Source of the DNA: an uncultured Methanoregulaceae archaeon
GTDB taxonomy: Archaea > Halobacteriota > Methanomicrobia > Methanomicrobiales > Methanospirillaceae
Assembly: GCA_963737635.1 (NCBI GenBank)
Contig: CAVTTL010000001.1
Location: 1,792,001-1,856,000, forward strand
DNA length: 64,000 nt
Reading direction: 5' to 3'
Within the stretch, counting starts at the first letter, position 1; each line of letters opens with the position of its first letter. This document shows positions 21,573 through 32,135 of this stretch, one piece after another. The notes under the pieces are model-generated. The model did not search any database, was not told where the DNA came from, and saw only the letters and a program-made list of their open reading frames with translations. The position numbers and the translations under genes were made by a program.

Positions 21573-24035
21573 TTATATCAGTGGAAATCGGAATGTTCCT
21601 TTTGGCACAAGGATTTCGAATCGCGCGCCTTTCCCCGGTATACTGTTCTCCCGGATGTCAATCTGCGTGATCAGGAGAATTTCACGCGTCATAAACAATC
21701 CAAGACCGGTATTCTTCCCAACTCCCCGCTCGAAGATATGTTCTTTTTCACTTGCGGGGATGCCGACGCCATCATCTTCAAATACAAGAGTAATCCCGTC
21801 GGCAGATTGCTTAAAATATATTGAGATTGTGGTCAGCGTCAACCCGTACCTGATGGAGTTGTCTATAAGATTGTAAAACACTTTTTCAAGTAACGGATCG
21901 GCATAGATCTCAACATTTTTCAGGTCAATAACAAAGTTAATGCCGGATTTGTTAAAATTCGGAAGGACACGATTGATAACATCGAGAACGTTCTGCCATT
22001 GCGGGATGTGGATCCCGACTTCCTGGTATTGTTTGGTAAAGTCAATCTGGCGCTGAATAAGTCTGACGAGATCTTTCACATCATTGAGGAGGTGTGTCCT
22101 CTCTTCAGTTGAAGTAGTGACTTTTGCCATATCAATAAGCCCGTACACACCCGTGATCGTATTGAGGATGTCATGCCGGGTGATGTTATTCATCAGGTTG
22201 AGCTTTTTGTTCGCAAGTGCGATCGCATCTTCAATCTTTTTGCGTTCCGTGATATCCGTAATGGTCCCTGCCCACCCGCTCAGGTTTCCTGCGGAATCAA
22301 AGAGGGGAGCACCTTGACCGTATAACCAGTATATGGATCTATCCGGCGAGATAAAACGGGTTTCAGACCCGACTATCTTTCTCTCCTTGATTGCGGCACT
22401 AATGTCTCCGAGCAGGCGCTGTTTGTCCGTGGGTTCGAGAATATCTGCCCAGTATTTTCCCAGTATAACTGATGATGCGATTCCGGTAATCTTTGAAAAG
22501 GTCTCATTTACAAAAATGACATGTCCCTGTCGATCTAACCTGAATACTCCTACCGGTGATGCCTGGAGGATACCGCTAAGCAGTTTTGTGTTCTCCTCGA
22601 GCTGCTCTTTGAGCAGGGTCCGATCGGTGATATCGACGACGACTCCACGGAACCCGGCAATGGTTCCCTGCCTTTTTATGGGAGAGGTCGATACCAGGGC
22701 CTTCATGATACTGCCATCGCCTTTTTTCAGGCCATACGTCTCTCCGGGGGATTTTCCTCCGGCCATAACGTTTGCAAGACCCTGCGTCATCTGCCCGATG
22801 TACTCAGGCAGGACATAGTCGCGGATATTTGTACCATCAGCAATTTTTTGTTTGGTCACACCAAATACATCAGCACCGGCGGTATTGATATAGAGAATTT
22901 TTCCTTCAAGGTCGATTTCAAAGATAGTCTGGGGCATAAGTTCAGCGAGTTCCCGGAACCGCGTTTCGCTAGCCTGGAGTCCCTGCTGGGTTTTTTCAAT
23001 TGTATCAAGCATCCGGTTGATCTCTCCGGCAAGTCCGGAAAATTCATCATCCCCGCCGATATTGATACGTTTTTTTATAGCATGATTATGACCTATTGAT
23101 TGAACCTGCTGGTTCAGGGCGCCAAGACGGGAAATGAGGATCCTGTTGAAAATTACCACAAAAACGAGGCCGAACACTAATCCAGTTGCAAGAATAATAT
23201 AAATAAAATTGCGGGTGGTAATGAGCCCTGTCTGGTAGATATTCCGGGGCTCGGAGAAACTGACGACCAGAGCATCGTTCCCATAAATATCCTTGATGAG
23301 AGCATAACCCTCTACTTGGCTTATACTATCCGGCAGGACAAGAAAATGATTCTCGCCCGGCTGTGCGTCCAGGCTCATACGCAGGTCTTCTGAAAAAGCG
23401 GGATCGGTCACAGGTGTAAGAGCCAGGGTTGGCCGGGTAAGTCCCGCCAGGTACCGCACTTCGTTGGCATCTAAGTACCTTCCCATGATTACAACTCCTG
23501 CGGGGGTTCCGGAAAAATTCGAATAAACGATCGGACGGGATGCGACTATCAGGGGATACGGTCGGGCAAGTATAATGCCGGTAGTCGCCTTCTGCGGATC
23601 TGACATATTCAGGAGCGGACTCCCCGGAGTTATCTGGTTGAGGATGGAATCGGGTACAGGAAACATGGTATTGTTTTTGAGGTCGTAGGCTCCCTGATAA
23701 ATAATTCCGCCCTGATTATTGACGATTATTATCAGGTTAAGACGCAGTTTCTCAAAAGTACCGGGAATCAGGTTGTCTGTTAGGTAGTCTGAATTATCGT
23801 CTTTTACAAAATTGTACGTGTCATCCCGTGATCCCCAGTCTGAAACGATAACAGACAGCGTGTTTTCGTCGTCATTGATCATTTGTATGGTCTGATCGAG
23901 GTCCTTGAAAACATACTGTTTTTCAAGCGAGGAGTAACTTGAAAGCACGACAAAAGAGGAGAATACACTGACCGCTATAAGCATCCCGATCAGGAGGATC
24001 AAGAAGCTGTACAGTGTCTTTTTCTCGAGTTGCAT
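21573..24035 (-). CDS. Membrane sensor histidine kinase CHASE4-HAMP-PAS-PAS-HisKA-HATPase
   Basis: TM, DWGSRDDTYNF (CHASE4-like), GDDEFSGLAGEINRML (HAMP), two PAS domains, ITRHDILN, NLIDNSIRYG, DDGVG, GLGLF. Confidence 0.9.
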   Translation of the reverse strand: MQLEKKTLYSFLILLIGMLIAVSVFSSFVVLSSYSSLEKQYVFKDLDQTIQMINDDENTLSVIVSDWGSRDDTYNFVKDDNSDYLTDNLIPGTFEKLRLNLIIIVNNQGGIIYQGAYDLKNNTMFPVPDSILNQITPGSPLLNMSDPQKATTGIILARPYPLIVASRPIVYSNFSGTPAGVVIMGRYLDANEVRYLAGLTRPTLALTPVTDPAFSEDLRMSLDAQPGENHFLVLPDSISQVEGYALIKDIYGNDALVVSFSEPRNIYQTGLITTRNFIYIILATGLVFGLVFVVIFNRILISRLGALNQQVQSIGHNHAIKKRINIGGDDEFSGLAGEINRMLDTIEKTQQGLQASETRFRELAELMPQTIFEIDLEGKILYINTAGADVFGVTKQKIADGTNIRDYVLPEYIGQMTQGLANVMAGGKSPGETYGLKKGDGSIMKALVSTSPIKRQGTIAGFRGVVVDITDRTLLKEQLEENTKLLSGILQASPVGVFRLDRQGHVIFVNETFSKITGIASSVILGKYWADILEPTDKQRLLGDISAAIKERKIVGSETRFISPDRSIYWLYGQGAPLFDSAGNLSGWAGTITDITERKKIEDAIALANKKLNLMNNITRHDILNTITGVYGLIDMAKVTTSTEERTHLLNDVKDLVRLIQRQIDFTKQYQEVGIHIPQWQNVLDVINRVLPNFNKSGINFVIDLKNVEIYADPLLEKVFYNLIDNSIRYGLTLTTISIYFKQSADGITLVFEDDGVGIPASEKEHIFERGVGKNTGLGLFMTREILLITQIDIRENSIPGKGARFEILVPKGTFRFPLI

Positions 24036-24970: not shown

Positions 24971-25849
24971 TTACTCTGCGAGCCGGTATACGTCTTTTTC
25001 TTTCCGGATAAAACCTTCGCGTTCCAGTGCTTTCAGGAGCGGGCGTACCCGCCCGGGTTTTTCCTCAACATGCCGGGCGATCGCTTCCTCCCTTGCGGGG
25101 GAATTCGAGAGAAGATAGGTCAGGATAAGGCCCCGGATACGCCGGCCGGATCCTGCAAAAGGCGCCTGTTTTACATATGCCGTGCTCCTGCGGTTAGGGT
25201 TTGGCACACGCTTTTTGAGATCTGTGCCAACATCCATCAACGCCCAATACCAGACCCGGGGATTATCCCGGTCAAGAGTCCTTTCAACGAGCGGCAGGAT
25301 ATCCGCATCAGTCACGTTGTCTCTGCCGGGAAAGAAGAAGTGGATGAAGACCCGGCGGATGTTTGTCTCGATAAAGACAACCGGAAGATTAAACGCAAAG
25401 GCGCAAATTGAGGATGCAGTTGCCGGACCGATCCCGGGAAAAGTAGCCAGCACATCCGGATCGTACGGGACTCTCCCGCCGTACTCGTTTACCACGCGTT
25501 CGGCACATTTTTTCAGGGCAACGGCCCGCCGGTTGTAGCCCATGCCCTGCCATACTGCAAGCACATCGGAAAGCGAAGCCCGGGCAAGTGCTGCACAATC
25601 CGGGAACGCTTCGATAAATACTGGGTACTTTACCCCTATCCGTTCCACTTGGGTCTGCTGGAGCATGATCTCGGAGACAAGGATCCGGTACGGGTCTGTC
25701 GTGTGGCGCCAGATCATGTCGTGCCGGCCGTGGCGCCGGTAGAATGAGAGAACCTGCTCGCGGAAATCCGCGACATTCTCATCCGACAGCTGATCGGCTG
25801 AAGAGACCGGGCCGGAATTGTCAAAACGGGACTGGGTGGTTTTTTTCAT
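24971..25849 (-). CDS. mutY: A/G-specific adenine glycosylase, short form without the Fe-S Cys motif
   Basis: WRHTTDPYRILVSEIMLQQTQV, WQGMGYNRRA, HhH FPGIGPATA, ETNIRRV. Confidence 0.88.
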   Translation of the reverse strand: MKKTTQSRFDNSGPVSSADQLSDENVADFREQVLSFYRRHGRHDMIWRHTTDPYRILVSEIMLQQTQVERIGVKYPVFIEAFPDCAALARASLSDVLAVWQGMGYNRRAVALKKCAERVVNEYGGRVPYDPDVLATFPGIGPATASSICAFAFNLPVVFIETNIRRVFIHFFFPGRDNVTDADILPLVERTLDRDNPRVWYWALMDVGTDLKKRVPNPNRRSTAYVKQAPFAGSGRRIRGLILTYLLSNSPAREEAIARHVEEKPGRVRPLLKALEREGFIRKEKDVYRLAE

Positions 25850-26012
25850 GGTATCCTAAGGAAGAACAGGTCGTTGTGATAGGGTTCTTTTCCGGGACAC
25901 TACATAACCGTTGGGATTCCTGCACAACACGCTCTTTTCCGGCACCCGACCGGTAAATGCCATCGCAATGCTCTTTATCCATGTTCCTCATATCATTGCA
26001 CCAGAGGCATAC

Positions 26013-27554
26013 ATGGACCAGGATCCTATCGGTAATTCCCAGTATTCTGGCGACGAGGGAAAGCGCGGGGACGAAGAACGGTTCATGCGCTGGAGAGACT
26101 GGCAGGATCAGGAGCAGGATACGCGGCTTGCAAAGATCCGTAGCAGTGTAGAGGCCGTCTTCTCCGAAGGCCTGATGATCGCGCTTTCGCTTATCCTCAT
26201 CCCGGTACTCATTATACCGGCGATCGTGGCTGTCCCTGATACGACGCGGCTTATCTTCAACACCATCGATGAAACAATCCTTGGCGTCTTCATTCTCGAA
26301 TACAGCTTCAGACTCGCATGTGCCACGGACCGCCGGCAGTTTATCTTAAATCCATGGCACCTGCTGGACCTCTTTATCATCGCTGTACCGGTGGGTGCCA
26401 TCGTTGTGGGATCATACCAGAAACTCACCGGATCGTTGAGGCTGCTCCGGCTGTTGCGCCTCACCCGGAGTGCGGCGCTTGGCACCCGGGTATACTCGCG
26501 CCAGGAATCGGGTTTGGAAAACGGTGGCGCTGCCACAGTTGCGCCGTCTCGTGAATGCACAGTCAGTACCCTTTACCCTGCCATTCCGGAGAATGGAGGG
26601 GGGGTGAATGCACGGCACCTCCGTGATATCCCGGATTCGGAGAGCGTTAACTTTGAAGGCCCCGAAACCAGCACGATATGGTATGATTTTACGTCAGTGC
26701 ACGAGACCGATCTCCTCAAGATCAATCGTCTGACCGGCGTATCGGCAAGCCTTCTTGAAGAGGCGATCAAGGAACGGGCGTTTCCCTGGGTACGGATACA
26801 CAAGAACCACGCCGCTGTCTATCTCAAGATTATGGAGAGCCGTAAGAACCCGGCCAATCCCAAGCAGATATTCATCGCATGGAAATGGATCCTCATTGTC
26901 AGCAGGGACCATATCCTGCTAACGTTCTCTTCGTCTCCGCTTTCAGCTCCGGAGACCCTTTCTCGCGAGGCACTCGCAGCCCGCGAAACCCTGACACCCG
27001 CTGAGATTACCTACCGGTTTTTCCAGAAGGCACTTTCCGGGATCGAAGAGACCCTCCGGGCCATAGAAGACGAACTTGAATACACGGGATCCTTGCCTAT
27101 CAGCAAACAGCCATCGAGTTTCCTTCCGGCAACCTTCAAGCTCAAAAAAGAGTCGGTCAAGATGCATTCCTGGCTCCTGCATACCAAAGATGTGCTCAAC
27201 GGCATCGTGACCGGAAAAGTGATCCTTCAAGGTATAGAAGACGGATCGCAATTTTCCGCCCTTCTTGACCGGGCGTCGTACCTGTACGATATCTCTGATG
27301 ATACTACGGAGAACGTATCGTCGCTGACCGATTACTACTTCAACTCGACCTCTTTCCAGATGGGAAGGGTGATGAAACTGATCGCCGTGCTCTCGGCACT
27401 CACTATCATCCCCACTGTCGTTGGCAGCCTTCTGGGTTCGAATCTCGCGGGCAACCCGTGGCCCATCTCTCTGGGGCAGCTGATCGTTCTTGTGGGCATT
27501 GCGATGTTCGCGACCGGGTGGGTGTATTACCAGCTTGGCTGGCTGAAGACCTGA
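26013..27554 (+). CDS. Fusion of a voltage-sensor-like domain (S1-S4) and a CorA-family cation transporter
   Basis: FILEYSFRL, NPWHLLDLFII and LRLLRLLRLTR, then a CorA-like cytoplasmic domain and MGRVMKLIAVLSALTIIPTVVGSLLGSN plus a second TM; start moved to ATG at 26013. Confidence 0.82.
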   Translation: MDQDPIGNSQYSGDEGKRGDEERFMRWRDWQDQEQDTRLAKIRSSVEAVFSEGLMIALSLILIPVLIIPAIVAVPDTTRLIFNTIDETILGVFILEYSFRLACATDRRQFILNPWHLLDLFIIAVPVGAIVVGSYQKLTGSLRLLRLLRLTRSAALGTRVYSRQESGLENGGAATVAPSRECTVSTLYPAIPENGGGVNARHLRDIPDSESVNFEGPETSTIWYDFTSVHETDLLKINRLTGVSASLLEEAIKERAFPWVRIHKNHAAVYLKIMESRKNPANPKQIFIAWKWILIVSRDHILLTFSSSPLSAPETLSREALAARETLTPAEITYRFFQKALSGIEETLRAIEDELEYTGSLPISKQPSSFLPATFKLKKESVKMHSWLLHTKDVLNGIVTGKVILQGIEDGSQFSALLDRASYLYDISDDTTENVSSLTDYYFNSTSFQMGRVMKLIAVLSALTIIPTVVGSLLGSNLAGNPWPISLGQLIVLVGIAMFATGWVYYQLGWLKT

Positions 27555-27567
27555 CCCGGTAACTGGA

Positions 27568-29418
27568 TCAGGTCCGCCCGAATATCTCGTCCAGTTTTGC
27601 CCGGGTGAACCGGATCATGGTCGGCCGGCCGTGCGGACAGGTAAATGGTATGTGAGTCGCCCGAAGCTGGTTTACTATGCGCTGACATTGCTCATGTGTG
27701 CAGACCGTACCGGCCTTTATCGCACTCCGACAAGCAATAATCCGGGTAATCCGTTCCCGGTCGCCCATGGGCCGTTCCCGGTCATTACTCAGGAGATCGC
27801 TTACGAGATCGTCAATCTGCTCCGGCCCATCACACTTTCCCATGACGGCCGGGATGGCCCGGATCAAAAAAGAGTCACTCCCGAACTCTTCGATAACGAC
27901 ACCTTCCCGCCCGAGCGCAGGGATCAGCCCGCGAAGGATTGTCGCGTCTTTGGGAGGCCGGTGAATAACTGCAGGGATAAGCAATTCCTGTGCATGCCGG
28001 GCTGCTGTTGATCGGCTCACCTGCTCGTAGACGATTCGTTCGTGTGCGGCGTGCTGGTCGATGATGATTAACTCGCCATCGGGAGCAGCGGCGAGGATGT
28101 AGATGCCCCCGACCTGGCCAATCACCTCCATCGGCGGCACAACTGCAGTAACCTGCGGAATCCCTCGTGCAATTTCGGTTTGCCGGAGCCGGTGGTCGGT
28201 CGATACAGTACCTGCGTGGGTCGGTTCGGTAAACTGGGAGTATAGAGTCTCCGGTGAATCGTGTTTTCCGGACCCTGCGCTTCCGGCATCATAACATCCC
28301 GCCGGTTCTGCGATGCCTGGTGCTGCGGGGGGGGGTGCCGGTTGTGCACGTCCCTGCCCCGGGAAACCTGTGCGGGGAACCGCGATATCCGGGATGAGAT
28401 CGCTGTGGCGAAGGGTTTCGCGGACCGCATCCCGTACTGCGTCACCGATCTCCTTTTCCTTGGAGAGACGAACCTCTTTTTTTGTGGGATGGACATTGAT
28501 ATCCACGAAGCTGGTATCGATGGTAAGCGTGAGGAATGCCACCGGGAACCGGCCCCGGGGAAGGAGGGTGTCGTAACCATCCCGTATGGCGGCAGTCACC
28601 AGCGGTGCAGATACATACCGACCATTGATGGAGACAAAAATGCGGTCATGATCTTTGCGGGAAAGGGCCGGACGGGAAATATAGCCTGAGACACGCATAA
28701 AGGGCAGGTCAGCACAGACCGGGATCAGCTCACGCCCATAGTCACTTCCGAAGATCCGGATGATCGTATCAAGCCATTGTGTGGTTCTTTCAGTGACAAG
28801 TTGCTCACGGTTGTTATGGAAGAACCGGAACGATACCTGGGGGCAGGCAAGGCAGAGTCCTTCAAGGATCCCATGGATACGGGCGAGCTCAGTGTTAAGA
28901 CTTTTCTGGAATTTTTTTCGGGCTGGTGTGTTGAAAAAGAGCTCTTCTACAAGGACATTTGTCCCCTCAGGAGCCCCGGTATCCGTTTTCGTTTGTTTAA
29001 CGCCACCGATCATAACGATCCGGGTGCCAGAAGCCTTAGCGCTGCCCCGGTGCTTTGTCACGAGTGTTACTTTCGCGACAGCCGCAATGCTTGCAAGCGC
29101 TTCGCCACGGAAGCCCAAGGTGTGGATCGAAAACAGGTCATCGATATTCATGATCTTGCTTGTCGCATGTGGGACAAAGGCAAGTTCTGCATCCGACGCA
29201 GACATCCCGTACCCGTCATCAGCGACACGAATAGTCGCAATTCCCCCCTGCACCGATGTGATATCGATCCGGATCGTGCGGGCCCCGGCATCTATGGCGT
29301 TCTCTACAAGCTCCTTGACGACCGAGGCCGGGCGCTCGATAACCTCACCAGCTGCGATCTGGTTGACCGTAGCCGGATCAAGGATCCTGATAGTCGAGTC
29401 GCTTTCACTCAGCGTCAA
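27568..29418 (-). CDS. mutL: DNA mismatch repair endonuclease MutL
   Basis: NQIAAGEVIERPASVVKELVENAIDAG, GFRGEAL, DQHAAHERIVYE, ACR, CPHGRP. Confidence 0.96.
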   Translation of the reverse strand: MTLSESDSTIRILDPATVNQIAAGEVIERPASVVKELVENAIDAGARTIRIDITSVQGGIATIRVADDGYGMSASDAELAFVPHATSKIMNIDDLFSIHTLGFRGEALASIAAVAKVTLVTKHRGSAKASGTRIVMIGGVKQTKTDTGAPEGTNVLVEELFFNTPARKKFQKSLNTELARIHGILEGLCLACPQVSFRFFHNNREQLVTERTTQWLDTIIRIFGSDYGRELIPVCADLPFMRVSGYISRPALSRKDHDRIFVSINGRYVSAPLVTAAIRDGYDTLLPRGRFPVAFLTLTIDTSFVDINVHPTKKEVRLSKEKEIGDAVRDAVRETLRHSDLIPDIAVPRTGFPGQGRAQPAPPPAAPGIAEPAGCYDAGSAGSGKHDSPETLYSQFTEPTHAGTVSTDHRLRQTEIARGIPQVTAVVPPMEVIGQVGGIYILAAAPDGELIIIDQHAAHERIVYEQVSRSTAARHAQELLIPAVIHRPPKDATILRGLIPALGREGVVIEEFGSDSFLIRAIPAVMGKCDGPEQIDDLVSDLLSNDRERPMGDRERITRIIACRSAIKAGTVCTHEQCQRIVNQLRATHIPFTCPHGRPTMIRFTRAKLDEIFGRT

Positions 29419-32135
29419 CGACCAGCCTCCTTAAAATCCGTCCCGTCTGGTTTTCTGGTGAGATCCTTGAGTTCAGCCAGTTTTGCAAGTGCCTGCAAAG
29501 GAGTCATCGTATCAGGATCGAGTCGGGACAGTTCAACGATCGCCGGATCCGGCACCAGCAGCCTATCTTGTGCAGGCACGCTGTCATCGGCAAGAAGGAG
29601 CTGGGTGTAGCGCCGGGCCTTCGCCCCTCCGGAAGTATCGCGGCTGAGGGATTCAGCGAGAATAATATCAGCGCGGTCGGTCACTTTTTTAGGAATGCCG
29701 GCAAGACGGGCCACATGGATCCCGTAACTCTTGTCAGTAGCGCCCGGAATGAGTTTCCTTAAGAAAACGACTTCCTTTTTTGTTTCCTGCACTGCAAAGT
29801 GATAGTTTTTTACCCGCTTTAGTTCTCCATCCATACCGATTAGATCGTGGAAGTGTGTGGCAAAGAGGGTCTTAGGACCTGCGGACGATTTTCCGTGCAG
29901 ATATTCAAGAACTGCTTGTGCAATAGAGCACCCGTCCGCGGTACTGGTGCCCCGGCCGATTTCGTCGAGGACAATAAGACTTTTTTCCGTCATGTTGTTG
30001 AGGATGTTTGCCAGTTCGAGCATCTCGACAAAGAACGTGCTCTGGCCGCTTGCGAGGTCATCAAATGCGCCGACCCGGTGAAAATCCGGTCGATGATCCC
30101 GACGCGTGCAAAACGGGCCGGGACAAAACATCCTGCCTGTGCCATGATACAGCAGAGTGCGATCGAGCGCATATACGTTGACTTCCCTGCCATATTCGCG
30201 CCCGTGATAATCATGATCTGGGTTTTTGATCCGGAAAGATCCGTGTCGTTGGGGACAAAAGATCCGGGAAGACTTCTCTCAACAACCGGGTGTCGTACGT
30301 CCCTGCATACAACAGCGTCACCGCTATCCAGCTGGGGACGGACATAATCGAGATCCTGTGCAGCATCTGCCAGAGCCGTAGCAACATCGAGAGTGGCGAT
30401 CCCGGACGCGACCTGCTGGAGATCTGGAATCTTTTTACGGATCTCATCGATCAGCCCGGCGTACAGTGCGCGTTCGAGGGCGAGTACCCGCTCATCGGCG
30501 TCAGTGATCACTGCCTCTTTTTCCCTCAATTCAGGAATAGTGTACCGTTCCCCGGTTGCCGTCGTCTGCCTGCGCTCGTACCGGGCCGGGACAAGAGGGA
30601 CGTTAGTTTTGCTCACATCAATATAATAGCCGAAGACCCGGTTGTACCCGATCTTGAGCGATCGGATCCCGGTCTTCTCACGTTCCTGCTGCTGGAGGTC
30701 TGCGATCCAATTCTTCCCGGAGTGCAGGACACCGGTCATCCCGTCAAGTTCGGCAGAATAGCCGGGCCGTATAACCCCGCCGTTTTTGGGAGTGGCCGGT
30801 GGATCATCGATGATAGCTCTCTCGATAATATCGATGACCGTTGGAAATTCAATGAGCCGATCCCGTGCCACGGCTACCCGCTCCGGGACCGGATTGGACC
30901 CATCCGGTGCCGGGGACGGCGCTTGAAGCACATTCCTTATCGCCGGGATAGTTTCAAGGGATTCAACGAGCGCGATAAGGTCACGGGGGCCGGGCATTCC
31001 CGTAGGCGATTCTCGCCGTGATCCGTTCAATGTCGGCATGGCAGGAAAGGAGATCCCGGAGGGATATTCGCAGGGAGACCGATTTTGTGAAGTATTCGAT
31101 TGCATCAAGCCGTGCGCCGATACGGGCGATATCGGTGAGCGGCTGGGTTAGCCGCCTGCGCAAGAGTCTGCTTCCCATCGGCGTCTTTGTCCTATCGAGG
31201 GTGGAAAAAAGCGTCGCACCTTTATTACCGCCCCGAATACTTTCATATACTTCGAGGTTGCGCAGCGTGATCGCGTCAAGCATCATGCCTTGTGCAGATG
31301 TGCGCGTGGAAAGCCCGCTCACGTGCGGAAGGTTGGATCTCTGGGTCTCCTCTGCATAGGCTAACGCTGCCCCTGCTGCGCCGACTGCCGCCGGCATTGC
31401 ATCGCAGCCATATCCGGTGAGCGTTGCAGCCCCAAAGTGATCGCAGAGGGTACGTGCAGCCCGGTCCGGGAAGAAACGATCATCTGCATAGGGTGTCACC
31501 ACGACTTCTTCCCGCTGCAGGAGTTCCCGCAGATCATCGTCAACCGTTGAAGGGACGATGCACTCCGCGGGCCGGTACCGGGCGATCTCGGATCGTATAC
31601 TCCCCGCAATTCCTTCGGGGGGAAGTGCAGAGACAAAAAATTCGCCGGTCGAAATATCGAGAAGCGCCATGCCCCAATCGGCTCCTTTCGCCCCGGGGGA
31701 AAGTGCCATCAGGTAGGTAGCAGCTGAAGAAGGAAGCATCGCCGGATCGATCACGGTACCGGGGGTGATTACGCGGACGACCTCTCGTTTCACGAGCCCT
31801 TTTGCAGTTTTTGGATCCTCCGTCTGCTCACAGATTGCTACTTTGTAGCCTTTGGCAACGAGACGCGCGATATATCCCTCCCCCGCATGATGGGGAACAC
31901 CCGCAAGGGGGATGCGCTGGTCGCCGTTTTTGGACCGGGAAGTCAGCACGAGATCGAGTTCTTTTGAGACGATCTCAGCGTCACCTTCGAGTGTCTCGAA
32001 AAAGTCCCCGATATGGAAAAAGAGGATCGCGTCAGGATGCTGTGCCTTGATCTCACGGTACTGCCGCATGCCGGGGGTAAGATTTTTGTCGTCATTGGCC
32101 GCCGCGCCGGTACCGGAACCAGGCTCCGTTTTCAT
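29415..32135 (-). CDS. mutS: DNA mismatch repair protein MutS, apparent frameshifts at ~30992 and ~30077
   Basis: Three consecutive ORFs: TPGMRQY...GDFFE; ITGANMAGKSTYMR; DDLASGQSTFFVEM, DEIGRGTS, ATHFH, SYGIHVA. Confidence 0.95.

What the first reader, a model, noticed from the sequence alone, without database searches (positions are those of the whole stretch)
26013..27554. Pore-less voltage-sensor domain fused to a CorA-type channel with GSN replacing GMN
Seen: the N-terminal ~160 aa carry the S1-S4 signature of voltage-gated channels (S2 FILEYSFRL, S3 NPWHLLD, S4 LRLLRLLRLTR with Arg at every third residue). There is no S5-P-S6 pore. In the same unbroken frame follow a CorA-like cytoplasmic funnel and two TM helices whose selectivity motif reads GSN. 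Known: CorA/ZntB proteins are pentamers with a GMN/GxN filter, gated by divalent ions, and voltage sensors can drive non-canonical effectors (voltage-sensing phosphatase, SLC9C1, Hv1). Inference: this may be a membrane-potential- or pH-gated divalent-cation channel, an architecture I do not know to be characterized. It lies on the opposite strand between mutY and mutL, like a single-gene insertion.
Basis: partly seen in the sequence, partly recalled or inferred. Interest (0 to 1): 0.82.

Follow-up and report, generated by a model that had tools for sequence, protein, structure and literature searches.

The report
Voltage sensor fused to CorA channel
One gene of a methanogen joins a voltage-sensor domain, of the kind found in nerve-type ion channels, to a complete CorA-type magnesium/metal channel; the fusion is conserved in many anaerobic microbes, was not found described in the papers searched, and may be a new kind of voltage-controlled channel.

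Summary
Window 26013-27554 (+) is one unbroken 513-aa ORF. Pfam finds Ion_trans on residues 58-153, covering S1-S4 only with no pore, and CorA on residues 220-504. The motif at the end of TM1 reads GSN.

It is not an assembly chimera. 38 of 46 loci from named genomes encode both domains in one frame. These are mostly methanogens, plus two Nitrososphaerota and five bacteria. In the host's order, 41 of 301 genomes carry this sensor.

Across 51 full-length members only eight positions are invariant. Four of them are voltage-sensor hallmarks: S2 F93 and E96, S3 D119 and S4 R146. R149 is kept in 48 of 51 and R152 in 39 of 51. G-x-N is kept, but x varies (M, S, E, A, T, Q).

The CorA and sensor domains give congruent trees, and the fused CorA domains form one clade. 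This points to one old fusion.

Best reading (about 0.55): a pentameric CorA-type divalent-cation channel whose gating is modulated by membrane potential. Function and coupling path are untested.

The gene does sit as an insertion between mutL and a mutY-like gene, but the insertion is shared by at least three species. Nine literature searches found no description. ESM Atlas clusters already carry this domain pair.

The parts
26013..27554 (+). Whole gene: voltage-sensor domain fused to a CorA-type channel, 513 aa plus stop. Alternative in-frame starts are ATG 25968 and TTG 25911.
   Evidence: Homologues align from the MDQDP start. P0002, the 528-aa database form, appears.
26013..26165 (+). Cytoplasmic N-terminal segment, residues 1-51, including a predicted pre-S1 helix at 27-49. 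The FMRWRDW motif is conserved only in part of the family.
   Evidence: AF2 model. Column counts: W27 in 21 of 51.
26166..26225 (+). S1, residues 52-71. D/E52 lies at its cytoplasmic end, and the span contains no other acidic residue in the window protein.
   Evidence: D/E52 in 49 of 51; M55 in 50 of 51.
26238..26318 (+). S2, residues 76-102. It carries the outer acid D86, the charge-transfer-centre residues F93 (codon 26289-26291) and E96 (26298-26300), and R100 (Lys in most members).
   Evidence: F93 51/51; E96 51/51; D86 is D 30, N 15, E 2; position 100 is K 44, R 3.
26352..26408 (+). S3, residues 114-132, with motif NPWHLLD. D119 (codon 26367-26369) is invariant, and H116 is a family-specific His.
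   Evidence: D119 51/51; W115 49/51; H116 45/51.
26415..26513 (+). S4 and its helical extension, residues 135-167. Gating-charge arginines are R143, R146, R149 and R152 (codons 26439-26468), followed by conserved G157, R159 and R163.
   Evidence: R146 51/51, R149 48/51, R152 39/51, R143 18/51, R159 47/51 (+3 K), R163 41/51.
26514..26558 (+). Short linker of poorly conserved sequence between the S4 extension and the first strand of the CorA cytoplasmic domain, residues 168-182. AF2 confidence is under 50 for residues 158-178.
   Evidence: block conservation 0.19-0.33. The R159-to-W223 spacing is 46-65 aa in 51 members.
26559..27245 (+). CorA-type cytoplasmic (funnel) domain, residues 183-411.
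   Evidence: Pfam CorA. Foldseek to T. maritima CorA, E 4e-14, target TM-score up to 0.80. Profile alignment to TmCorA residues 35-351.
27246..27446 (+). Stalk helix running into pore-lining TM1, residues 412-478, ending in the G-S-N motif (residues 475-477, codons 27435-27443).
   Evidence: G475 50/51, N477 49/51; the middle residue is M 18, S 12, E 7, A 4, T 4, Q 3.
27471..27533 (+). TM2, residues 487-507, followed by the conserved C-terminal GW motif (G509 and W510 invariant).
24971..25849 (-). Divergent upstream neighbour: an HhH-GPD base-excision glycosylase, mutY-like. It is context, not part of the system.
   Evidence: It lies directly next to mutL in congeners that lack the fusion.
27568..29418 (-). 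Convergent downstream neighbour: mutL, with 13 nt between the two stop codons. It is context, not part of the system.

Best explanation
The gene encodes one polypeptide with six membrane helices. An N-terminal S1-S4 voltage-sensor domain has both ends in the cytoplasm. It is followed by a complete CorA-type unit: a cytoplasmic funnel domain, a long stalk helix running into pore-lining TM1 with G-S-N at its outer end, and TM2. By analogy with solved CorA proteins it should assemble as a pentamer with one central divalent-cation pore (Mg2+, possibly Co2+/Ni2+/Zn2+), ringed by five voltage sensors. I propose that movement of the S4 arginines with membrane potential is passed through the S4 extension and the conserved G157-x-R159-x3-R163 segment into the N-terminal strands of the funnel domain. 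That would bias the closed/open equilibrium, which in ordinary CorA is set by cytoplasmic Mg2+ bound between funnel domains. Flux through an electrophoretic metal channel would then be tuned to the cell's energisation. Shown: the architecture, its conservation, and the sensor hallmarks. Inferred: the pentamer, the ion, voltage dependence, its polarity, and the coupling path.
For: Architecture: Pfam Ion_trans (S1-S4 only) plus CorA in one ORF. The AF2 model has mean pLDDT 75.8 with four N-terminal helices, the funnel, the stalk/TM1 and TM2. Foldseek gives T. maritima CorA at E 4e-14. The topology of the two modules is compatible, since S4 ends in the cytoplasm where the CorA funnel begins.

The fusion is real and old:
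- 24 of 28 database hits carry both Pfam domains.
- 38 of 46 genome loci match across both domains.
- 31 of the best 150 representatives in the exhaustive sensor-profile search are full-length fusions.
- 41 of 301 genomes of the order carry this sensor, 35 of them in frames of 494 aa or more.
- ESM Atlas counts four hit clusters with this domain pair; the three listed show CorA on 100% and Ion_trans on 90-99% of members.
- The CorA domains of 45 fusions form one side of a branch (SH-aLRT 100) against 16 unfused CorAs.
- A tree of the sensor alone recovers the same major groups.

The sensor is under selection as a sensor. Of 8 invariant positions in 51 members (22-73% identity to the window protein), 4 are F93, E96, D119 and R146. 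R149 is kept in 48/51, R152 in 39/51 and R159 in 47/51. The S3 and S4 blocks are as conserved (0.72, 0.69) as the pore blocks (0.71-0.73), and more than the funnel (0.3-0.5).

Physiological sense. CorA transport is stimulated by membrane potential (abstract of PMC6972854). CorA gating is normally a Mg2+ feedback loop acting on the cytoplasmic domains (abstract start of PMC6927688, listing). The profile alignment to TmCorA places D89 and D253 on non-conserved, mostly non-acidic columns. D89 and D253 are the pair mutated in PDB 5jtg (title seen); their role as the Mg2+ sensor is my recall. Column 250 reads S 16, E 10, G 6 and others. Column 416 reads A 18, S 6, L 6, I 6, V 4 and others, with none of the listed residues acidic. 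The usual sensor may therefore be altered.
Against: - No functional or expression data exist.
- The path from S4 to the funnel is unclear. The residues after R163 are poorly conserved, and AF2 confidence is below 50 for residues 158-178.
- Nothing here resembles the S4-S5 linker used by tetrameric channels, and a five-fold sensor ring has no precedent.
- The outermost arginine R143 is present in only 18/51. Three members have Gln at 149, and two of those (P0037, P0055) also have Gln at 152, leaving at most two S4 arginines.
- Fold-level support for the sensor is weak. The sensor-only AF2 model joined S3 and S4 into one helix. Foldseek E was 0.019 or worse. The best VIA Z of 9.3 (Kv2.1) sits among unrelated helical bundles of similar Z.
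- The CorA part is divergent. NCBIfam corA scores 78.8 bits against a cut-off of 200.75. The protein has GSN instead of GMN, and the stretch after G-x-N reads LAGNPW where the T. maritima chain has EYMPEL in the profile alignment. Mg2+ selectivity is therefore not assured.
- The D89/D253 argument rests on an alignment at about 15% identity.
Confidence: 0.55

Rival explanations
1. The S1-S4 domain is kept for a role other than sensing voltage, such as membrane anchoring, assembly, lipid or ligand binding (as in TRP-type S1-S4 domains). The CorA channel would then be gated by something else.
For: The linker after R163 is poorly conserved and of low model confidence. The number of S4 arginines varies from 2 to 4 across the family. 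No known mechanism couples a sensor to a CorA funnel.
Against: An anchor would not need an invariant Phe-x-x-Glu in S2, an invariant Asp in S3 and an invariant or near-invariant Arg triplet in S4. Those are 4 of only 8 invariant positions in 51 diverged members. The sensor is as conserved as the pore.
Confidence: 0.25
2. The sensor domain is itself a conduction path for protons or ions, like Hv1 or an omega pore. The protein would then be a proton-coupled metal transporter in the manner proposed for ZntB.
For: ZntB, a CorA relative with a variant G-x-N, is stimulated by a proton gradient (abstract of PMC6972854). A conserved His116 sits one turn from D119 in S3.
Against: The window protein's S1 (residues 52-71) has no acidic residue apart from D/E52 at its cytoplasmic end. 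Hv1 has its selectivity Asp within S1 (recalled). The hydrophobic plug F93 is invariant. The sensor profile's listed sequence matches are Nav/Cav/Kv and bacterial sodium-channel sensors, with no Hv1 among the 60 shown.
Confidence: 0.07
3. The channel is voltage-modulated but is not a Mg2+ channel. The variable G-x-N (GSN here, GEN/GQN in one clade) would mark a transporter for trace metals that methanogens need in quantity (Ni2+, Co2+) or for another cation.
For: The middle residue of G-x-N varies: M 18, S 12, E 7, A 4, T 4, Q 3 of 51. The genome also has an MgtA-type Mg2+ ATPase (948 bits, cut-off 610.75), so Mg2+ uptake need not depend on this gene. The family is concentrated in methanogens. 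CorA and ZntB proteins all carry Mg2+, Co2+, Ni2+ and Zn2+ in liposomes.
Against: This gene is the only CorA-family match, and no MgtE match was found, in a genome that is 90% complete. The pore helix and the Asn of G-x-N are conserved as in Mg2+ channels. This is a variant of the best explanation rather than a true rival.
Confidence: 0.12
4. The fusion is an artefact: a chimeric assembly, or two adjacent genes merged by a sequencing error.
For: The assembly does carry frameshifts nearby: mutS is split into three frames.
Against: The same single-frame architecture occurs in 38 independent loci, including megabase contigs and a cultured strain (Methanoculleus formosensis Afa-1, L047). It also occurs in 35 open frames of 494 aa or more across the order. 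The two domains co-diverge.
Confidence: 0.01

Closest known systems
CorA Mg2+/Co2+ channels (Thermotoga maritima CorA, Methanocaldococcus jannaschii CorA; Pfam PF01544, 2-TM-GxN family)
   Same: Residues about 183-513 have the CorA layout: cytoplasmic funnel domain, long stalk helix continuous with TM1, G-x-N at the outer end of TM1, TM2, and a C-terminal GW motif. Sequence profile E is about 1e-36 to 1e-35. Foldseek E is 4e-14.
   Different: A 4-helix voltage sensor precedes the funnel. The motif is GSN rather than GMN. The stretch after G-x-N reads LAGNPW where TmCorA has EYMPEL. The TmCorA D89/D253 positions are not conserved as acids. The NCBIfam corA equivalog cut-off is not reached. The CorA domains form a clade apart from the unfused GMN CorAs of related genomes.
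ZntB and CmaX (CorA relatives, ZntB with a variant G-x-N motif)
   Same: Same fold family. The family profile hits CmaX 7nh9 at E 6.8e-9.
   Different: The match is much weaker than to CorA proper. Those proteins have no voltage sensor. ZntB is driven by a proton gradient (abstract); the driving force here is unknown.
Voltage-gated cation channels (bacterial NavAb/NavMs/NaChBac, Kv, eukaryotic Nav/Cav)
   Same: The S1-S4 domain is homologous. It has the Phe-x-x-Glu of S2, the Asp of S3 and Arg at every third position of S4. The closest sequence matches are Cav3/Nav repeats and bacterial sodium channels.
   Different: There is no S4-S5 linker and no S5-P-S6 pore: the Pfam match stops at profile position 105 of 241. 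The pore is supplied by an unrelated module that is pentameric in solved CorA structures. His replaces the usual Asn in the S3 W-N-x-x-D motif.
Voltage-sensing phosphatase (Ci-VSP) and the sperm Na+/H+ exchanger SLC9C1
   Same: In both, a voltage sensor drives a non-pore effector. In VSP the sensor acts through the segment that follows S4 (recalled), which is the arrangement proposed here. Both appear among the weak fold matches of the sensor model.
   Different: The effector here is an ion channel of another superfamily. The abstract of PMC10620092, seen only as its opening lines in the listing, calls SLC9C1 the only known transporter regulated by voltage-sensing domains. Those proteins are eukaryotic; this family is archaeal and bacterial.
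Hv1 voltage-gated proton channel
   Same: It is also a pore-less S1-S4 protein.
   Different: Hv1 conducts through the sensor itself and has an Asp within S1 (recalled). Here the window protein's S1 has no acid apart from D/E52 at its end, and a separate pore module is attached. [quoted passage not shown]

Membership tests
Voltage-sensor domain (S1-S4 part of Pfam PF00520 Ion_trans) | Significant match to the S1-S4 part of the family profile | tested here: met
   30.2 bits against a cut-off of 25, E 3.2e-7, profile positions 9-105. The family profile hits solved sensors, with 4bgn at E 6.7e-11.
Voltage-sensor domain (S1-S4 part of Pfam PF00520 Ion_trans) | S4 with basic residues at every third position | tested here: met
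   R143, R146, R149 and R152 in the window protein. In 51 members: R146 51, R149 48, R152 39, R143 18.
Voltage-sensor domain (S1-S4 part of Pfam PF00520 Ion_trans) | Charge-transfer centre: aromatic plus acidic residue in S2 (Phe-x-x-Glu) and Asp in S3. The definition is recalled from Shaker F290/E293/D316. | tested here: met
   F93, E96 and D119 are invariant in 51 of 51.
Voltage-sensor domain (S1-S4 part of Pfam PF00520 Ion_trans) | Four-helix transmembrane bundle fold | tested here: inconclusive
   The full-length AF2 model has four helices with pLDDT 54-83. The sensor-only model is poor. All 50 Foldseek rows are sensor-containing proteins, but E is 0.019 or worse. VIA gives Z 9.3 to Kv2.1 among unrelated bundles of similar Z.
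Voltage-sensor domain (S1-S4 part of Pfam PF00520 Ion_trans) | Charge movement in response to membrane potential | not testable with these tools
   This needs gating-current or fluorometry measurements.
Voltage-gated ion channel (6TM, sensor plus S5-P-S6 pore) | S5-P-S6 pore domain after S4 | tested here: not met
   The Ion_trans match ends at profile position 105 of 241, and there is no Ion_trans_2 match. CorA follows S4 instead.
CorA / 2-TM-GxN (MIT) family, Pfam PF01544 | Family profile match over the gathering score | tested here: met
   162.4 bits against a cut-off of 27, profile positions 3-287 of 292.
CorA / 2-TM-GxN (MIT) family, Pfam PF01544 | Cytoplasmic funnel domain, stalk helix, and two C-terminal TM helices | tested here: met
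   AF2 elements. Foldseek to T. maritima CorA gives E 4e-14 and target TM-score 0.63-0.80.
CorA / 2-TM-GxN (MIT) family, Pfam PF01544 | G-x-N motif at the outer end of TM1 | tested here: met
   GSN at residues 475-477. G in 50/51 and N in 49/51.
CorA / 2-TM-GxN (MIT) family, Pfam PF01544 | Homopentamer | not tested
   A pentamer of 513-aa chains exceeds the size limit of the complex tool. The pentamer is assumed from solved CorA structures.
CorA sensu stricto (Mg2+/Co2+ transporter, NCBIfam TIGR00383 equivalog) | Score over the equivalog cut-off | tested here: not met
   78.8 bits against a cut-off of 200.75.
CorA sensu stricto (Mg2+/Co2+ transporter, NCBIfam TIGR00383 equivalog) | Strict GMN motif followed by the MPEL loop | tested here: not met
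   The window protein has GSN followed by LAGNPW. The unfused CorAs of related genomes have YGMNF...MPE(L/I).
CorA sensu stricto (Mg2+/Co2+ transporter, NCBIfam TIGR00383 equivalog) | Inter-subunit Mg2+ sensor acids (TmCorA D89 and D253; their role is recalled, and the mutant title was seen) | tested here: inconclusive
   By profile alignment they fall on E250 (column: S 16, E 10, G 6, N 5, A 5, Q 4) and A416 (A 18, S 6, L 6, I 6, V 4, T 3). The alignment is at about 15% identity.
Hv1-type proton channel | Acidic selectivity residue within S1; conduction through the sensor (recalled) | tested here: not met
   In the window protein, S1 residues 53-71 contain no acidic residue, and none appears among the five commonest residues of those columns. 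Conduction was not tested.

The most novel reading that the evidence does not exclude
This family is a natural voltage-gated pentameric channel. Five S1-S4 sensors would control a CorA pore by pulling, through the post-S4 segment, on the cytoplasmic funnel that normally senses Mg2+, rather than by acting on an S4-S5 linker and S6 gate. That would be a new electromechanical coupling solution, evolved once in anaerobic archaea and passed to bacteria. It would add a further effector class for voltage sensors beside tetrameric pores, Hv1, phosphatases and SLC9C1.
Probability: 0.4. Interest if true: 0.9.

Novelty: new variant of a known kind. Interest (0 to 1): 0.78.

Why it matters
Voltage sensors are known to drive very few effectors other than tetrameric pore domains: phosphatases, the proton path of Hv1, and the SLC9C1 exchanger. 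Each new case has taught something about how S4 movement is converted into work.

A sensor wired to a pentameric channel of an unrelated superfamily would be a new coupling geometry and stoichiometry. It comes from prokaryotic proteins that may be amenable to expression and cryo-EM.

It would also show that some methanogens and anaerobic bacteria tie divalent-metal entry directly to membrane energisation. Canonical CorA relies instead on cytoplasmic Mg2+ feedback.

The family is large enough to support mutational and structural work. The Atlas clusters listed hold 89, 51 and 78 members, and at least one cultured strain carries a homologue.

Tried and rejected
- Complex prediction. I sent two copies of the CorA part (residues 181-513) with the sensor part (20-172) as partner. 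Score 0.15, mark 0.32: no verdict, and not used as evidence either way.
- The look-up of sequencing runs, kind rna. No RNA holder was listed. Read laying was therefore not used, and nothing can be said on expression.
- The search for homologous proteins with the family alignment and with the CorA part alone. Neither added an unfused close relative. They returned only the fusions plus two CorA-only proteins on contigs of 1433 and 1499 nt, which I take to be truncated.
- Sensor-only AF2 model. Poor: S3 and S4 were joined into one helix. Its Foldseek and VIA matches are only weakly informative.
- Conserved gene neighbourhood. No neighbour is shared across clades. Only clade-specific neighbours appear, for example an unannotated membrane protein of roughly 185-207 aa (stop-to-stop frames) downstream in 9 loci, mostly Methanoregula, with no Pfam match. 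Context therefore gives no functional clue.
- Stand-alone sensors of this family. The short sensor-only hits that I read look like frameshifted or truncated fragments. L056 is a truncated remnant.
- Long stop-to-stop frames (858-941 aa) in Methanoculleus loci. These are high-GC open frames upstream of the real start, not extra domains.
- Literature. Nine searches and passages of PMC13095418 and PMC7997004 gave no description of a sensor-CorA fusion. Subscription journals and supplements are outside what could be searched.
Full report
**1. The observation**

Window 26013-27554 on the + strand is one uninterrupted reading frame of 513 codons plus TGA. The frame stays open upstream to a TTG at 25911 (547 aa) and holds another ATG at 25968. 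That ATG would give 528 aa, the length of database protein P0002. Homologues align from the MDQDP start, and the residues before it are not conserved, so the start remains slightly uncertain.

GSN is residues 475-477.

Pfam gives two matches:
- Ion_trans: E 3.2e-7, 30.2 bits against a cut-off of 25, residues 58-153. It covers only profile positions 9-105 of 241, so S1-S4 without the pore half.
- CorA: E 1.9e-47, residues 220-504.

The NCBIfam corA equivalog model scores 78.8 bits, far below its cut-off of 200.75. The CorA part is therefore a divergent member of the family.

**2. Anatomy**

AlphaFold2 on a 23-sequence alignment gave mean pLDDT 75.8 and pTM 0.62. Its elements are:

| Residues | Element |
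|---|---|
| 27-49 | pre-S1 helix |
| 52-71 | S1 |
| 76-102 | S2 |
| 114-132 | S3 |
| 135-167 | S4 with a helical extension |
| 158-178 | low-confidence stretch |
| 183-188, 197-202 | first strands of the CorA cytoplasmic domain |
| 412-478 | 67-residue helix: stalk plus TM1, ending at GSN |
| 487-507 | TM2 |

Foldseek places the model on T. maritima CorA (E 4e-14, target TM-score up to 0.80) and M. jannaschii CorA.

A profile of the sensor part alone hits the voltage sensors of solved Cav3 and Nav channels. It also hits single-sensor bacterial sodium channels (4bgn E 6.7e-11, NaChBac 4.8e-9).

Fold-level support for the sensor is weak. The sensor-only model is poor. All 50 Foldseek rows are voltage-sensor proteins, but E is 0.019 or worse. 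The exhaustive VIA search puts Kv2.1 first (Z 9.3, 108 residues, rmsd 3.6), but unrelated helical bundles have similar Z. The case for the sensor therefore rests on sequence.

The two modules are topologically compatible. S4 ends in the cytoplasm, where the CorA funnel begins.

**3. The fusion is real, widespread and old**

- In the 5.8-billion-protein collection, 24 of 28 hits carry both Pfam domains, down to 29% identity. Two CorA-only hits and one sensor-only hit lie on contigs of 1.4-2.0 kb and are probably truncated. The last hit is a potassium channel.
- A scan of one genome per species returned 46 loci. 38 match across both domains, 6 are cut by contig ends, one is a truncated sensor remnant (L056) and one is an ordinary CorA (L058).
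- The 38 loci come from Methanoregula/Methanoregulaceae, other Methanomicrobiales, Methanoculleus (including the cultured M. formosensis Afa-1), Methanothrix (two paralogues in one genome), Methanocellales, Methanomassiliicoccus and two Nitrososphaerota/Thaumarchaeota.
- Five of the 38 have bacterial record titles: Dehalococcoidaceae, Chloroflexia, Ca. Moduliflexus, Bacterium UASB14 and one uncultured bacterium. Two of these lie on contigs over 1 Mb.
- That scan used two peptide patterns, so these counts are lower bounds.
- An exhaustive HMMER search of 1.84 billion representatives with the sensor profile found 669 proteins at E 1e-10 or better. Of the best 150, 31 are full-length sensor-plus-CorA proteins by my CorA-domain HMM. 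About 13 more carry a partial CorA domain. 72 are long proteins of 1237-2827 aa with 3-5 sensor matches; I take these to be four-repeat Nav/Cav-like channels from their length, unverified. The remainder are short sensor-only proteins and a few 6TM or tandem channels.
- In the host's order, 41 of 301 genomes at least 80% complete carry this sensor at E 1e-15 or better. Among high-quality genomes the figure is 31 of 210. By genus it is 14 of 66 congeners, 18 of 44 in a second genus and 4 of 10 in a third. 35 of the 41 lie in open frames of 494 aa or more.
- ESM Atlas counts four hit clusters of 50 or more members with this domain pair. The three listed have 89, 51 and 78 members, CorA on 100% and Ion_trans on 90-99%. 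Their automatic names are of the 'CorA-like / Ion transport protein domain-containing' kind.

The architecture is thus already visible to automatic annotation, although the papers I could search do not describe it.

**4. One origin, co-inherited domains**

I built a maximum-likelihood tree of CorA domains from 45 fusions and 16 unfused CorAs. Rows left out:
- six near-duplicates of the 51 fusions;
- three loci of a GxN-less subfamily;
- three loci that gave no hit to my CorA HMM.

The unfused CorAs come from related genomes plus one Deltaproteobacterium. The tree puts all fusions on one side of a branch with SH-aLRT 100. The outgroup is narrow, so a single origin is supported but not proven.

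A tree of the sensor part alone recovers the same major groups that the CorA tree defines. Group A has support 100 and group B 94, and the tree needs only the minimum of two label changes. The two halves have therefore diverged together without domain swapping.

The unfused CorAs of the same order are canonical, with YGMNF...MPE(L/I).

**5. Is the sensor still a sensor?**

In 51 full-length members (22-73% identical to the window protein), only eight columns are invariant: F93, E96, D119, R146, W223, P467, G509 and W510. Four of the eight are the hallmark residues of voltage sensors:
- the Phe-x-x-Glu of S2 (F93, E96);
- the Asp of S3 (D119);
- an S4 arginine (R146).

These correspond to Shaker F290, E293 and D316; that numbering is recalled, not tested.

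Other counts:

| Position | Count in 51 members |
|---|---|
| R149 | 48 |
| R152 | 39 |
| R143 | 18 (Pro in 22) |
| R159 | 47, plus 3 Lys |
| R163 | 41 |
| D86 (outer S2 acid, seven residues before F93) | D 30, N 15, E 2 |

Block conservation is 0.72 for S3 and 0.69 for S4. The pore blocks score 0.71-0.73 and the funnel 0.3-0.5. This is hard to reconcile with a mere membrane anchor.

Three points count against a simple picture. Three members have Gln at 149, and two of them (P0037, P0055) also have Gln at 152. The post-S4 linker beyond R163 is poorly conserved in sequence, although the R159-to-W223 spacing stays within 46-65 residues. His116 replaces the Asn seen at that S3 position in the Nav/Cav alignments; its meaning is unknown.

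**6. The pore module**

G475 (50/51) and N477 (49/51) are kept. The middle residue is M 18, S 12, E 7, A 4, T 4, Q 3 and others. GSN is the form of the Methanoregula clade that holds the window protein. One deep clade has GEN or GQN in 9 of 10 members.

The profile alignment to T. maritima CorA (E 4.8e-36) places Tm D89 on window E250 and Tm D253 on window A416. Column 250 reads S 16, E 10, G 6, N 5, A 5, Q 4. Column 416 reads A 18, S 6, L 6, I 6, V 4, T 3, with none of the listed residues acidic.

D89 and D253 are the pair mutated in PDB entries 5jtg and 5jrw (titles). I recall them as the inter-subunit Mg2+ sensor. The alignment is at about 15% identity, so this is only a hint that the usual Mg2+ feedback site is altered.

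**7. Genome context**

The gene lies between an HhH-GPD glycosylase (mutY-like, divergent) and mutL (convergent, 13 nt between stops). mutS follows mutL.

By tblastn, two other species keep the same arrangement: G020/L005 (fusion about 66% identical) and L015 (64-80% identical).

I examined five congeners without the fusion:
- in three, mutL and the mutY-like gene are adjacent on one strand, with gaps of about 160, 156 and 350 nt;
- in one the gap is 890 nt;
- in one the mutY-like gene is not within 1.5 kb.

It is an inherited insertion, and GC content does not differ from the flanks. A third orthologue (G028/L004) sits elsewhere. No neighbour is conserved across clades.

In the host genome (2.46 Mb, 4 contigs, 90% complete) this is the only CorA-family match and the only Ion_trans match, and no MgtE was found. 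An MgtA-type Mg2+ ATPase (948 bits, cut-off 610.75) and a CNNM/CorC protein are present. Most relatives have one to four CorA-family matches (58 of 61 genomes have at least one).

**8. Mechanism proposed**

Shown: one polypeptide with a conserved voltage-sensor signature and a complete CorA-type channel.

Inferred:
- It forms a pentamer, by analogy with solved CorA.
- Divalent cations pass the central pore.
- S4 movement is transmitted through the S4 extension and the conserved G157-x-R159-x3-R163 segment into the first strands of the funnel domain.
- That movement shifts the closed/open equilibrium, which in canonical CorA is controlled by cytoplasmic Mg2+. The abstract start of PMC6927688 describes closed symmetric and open asymmetric states and a feedback loop (listing).

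CorA flux is stimulated by membrane potential (abstract of PMC6972854). A sensor of that same potential is a sensible regulator: it could be a brake against overload at high potential, or a gate that opens only in energised cells. The polarity cannot be told from sequence. I put this reading at about 0.55.

**9. Comparison and novelty**

The CorA half is a member of the CorA/2-TM-GxN family, but not of the strict CorA equivalog. The N-terminal half is a member of the voltage-sensor family, but the protein is not a 6TM voltage-gated channel.

Functionally the nearest precedents are sensors that drive non-pore effectors: the voltage-sensing phosphatase and SLC9C1. The abstract of PMC10620092 calls SLC9C1 the only known transporter regulated by voltage-sensing domains (opening lines seen in the listing).

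Nine full-text searches found no paper on a sensor-CorA fusion. I also read passages of a 2024 review of voltage sensors and of an archaeal transporter survey, with the same result. Subscription-only papers, databases such as TCDB, and supplements could not be checked.

I rate it a new variant of known kinds: real, conserved, uncharacterised and mechanistically intriguing. Its function is unproven.

Noticed in passing
window 29415-32135 (-): mutS is split over three overlapping frames: domains I-III, III-V and V. The two frameshifts lie near window positions 30990 (a C5 run) and 30080 (a T4 run). The orthologue in L015 is an intact 915-aa frame. This is either a pseudogene or homopolymer indel errors in the assembly.
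   Followed up: partly
L015 5944-7546 (+): The closest named orthologue of the fusion (64-80% identity by tblastn, Methanoregulaceae MAG) is itself broken into two frames of 255 and 292 aa by a frameshift inside the funnel domain.
   Followed up: partly
L056 5356-6444 (+): Methanoculleus sp. UBA208 keeps only S1 to mid-S4 of the sensor. The frame then runs into unrelated sequence. It is a truncated remnant, not a stand-alone sensor gene.
   Followed up: partly
L006-L008 and L019-L026, L037 (Methanoregula paralogue clade); proteins P0037, P0055: A paralogous clade about 30% identical to the window protein has an S4 of the form R/K-x-x-R-x-x-Q-x-x-Q, so only two basic residues. In 9 loci (L020-L023, L025, L026, L037, L049, L051) it is followed on the same strand by a conserved membrane protein whose stop-to-stop frame is about 185-207 aa and which has no Pfam match.
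   Followed up: partly
proteins P0067, P0069, P0070, P0074, P0084, P0090, P0092, P0119, P0172 (clade B): One deep clade of the fusion family has GEN or GQN in place of GMN in 9 of 10 members. This suggests a different ion preference.
   Followed up: no
window 26358-26360 (His116): The S3 motif reads W-H-x-L-D. His is present in 45 of 51 members, where the aligned Nav/Cav sensors have Asn. It is a possible pH or metal site next to the charge-transfer Asp.
   Followed up: no
protein P0144 (649 aa, metagenome): Here a sensor is joined directly to the last roughly 90 residues of CorA (TM1-GMN-TM2) with almost no funnel. It is followed by about 370 aa of Arg/Glu/Pro-rich sequence. It may be an assembly or gene-call artefact.
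   Followed up: partly
window 21573-24035 (-): A large sensor histidine kinase with CHASE4, HAMP, two PAS domains and HATPase_c lies upstream of the mismatch-repair cluster.
   Followed up: no
G000:C1:1919203-1921698 and G000:C1:339619-340146 (outside the window): The host genome has an MgtA-type Mg2+ P-type ATPase that scores over its NCBIfam cut-off, and a CNNM/CorC-type protein. The fusion is therefore not the only candidate Mg2+ system.
   Followed up: partly
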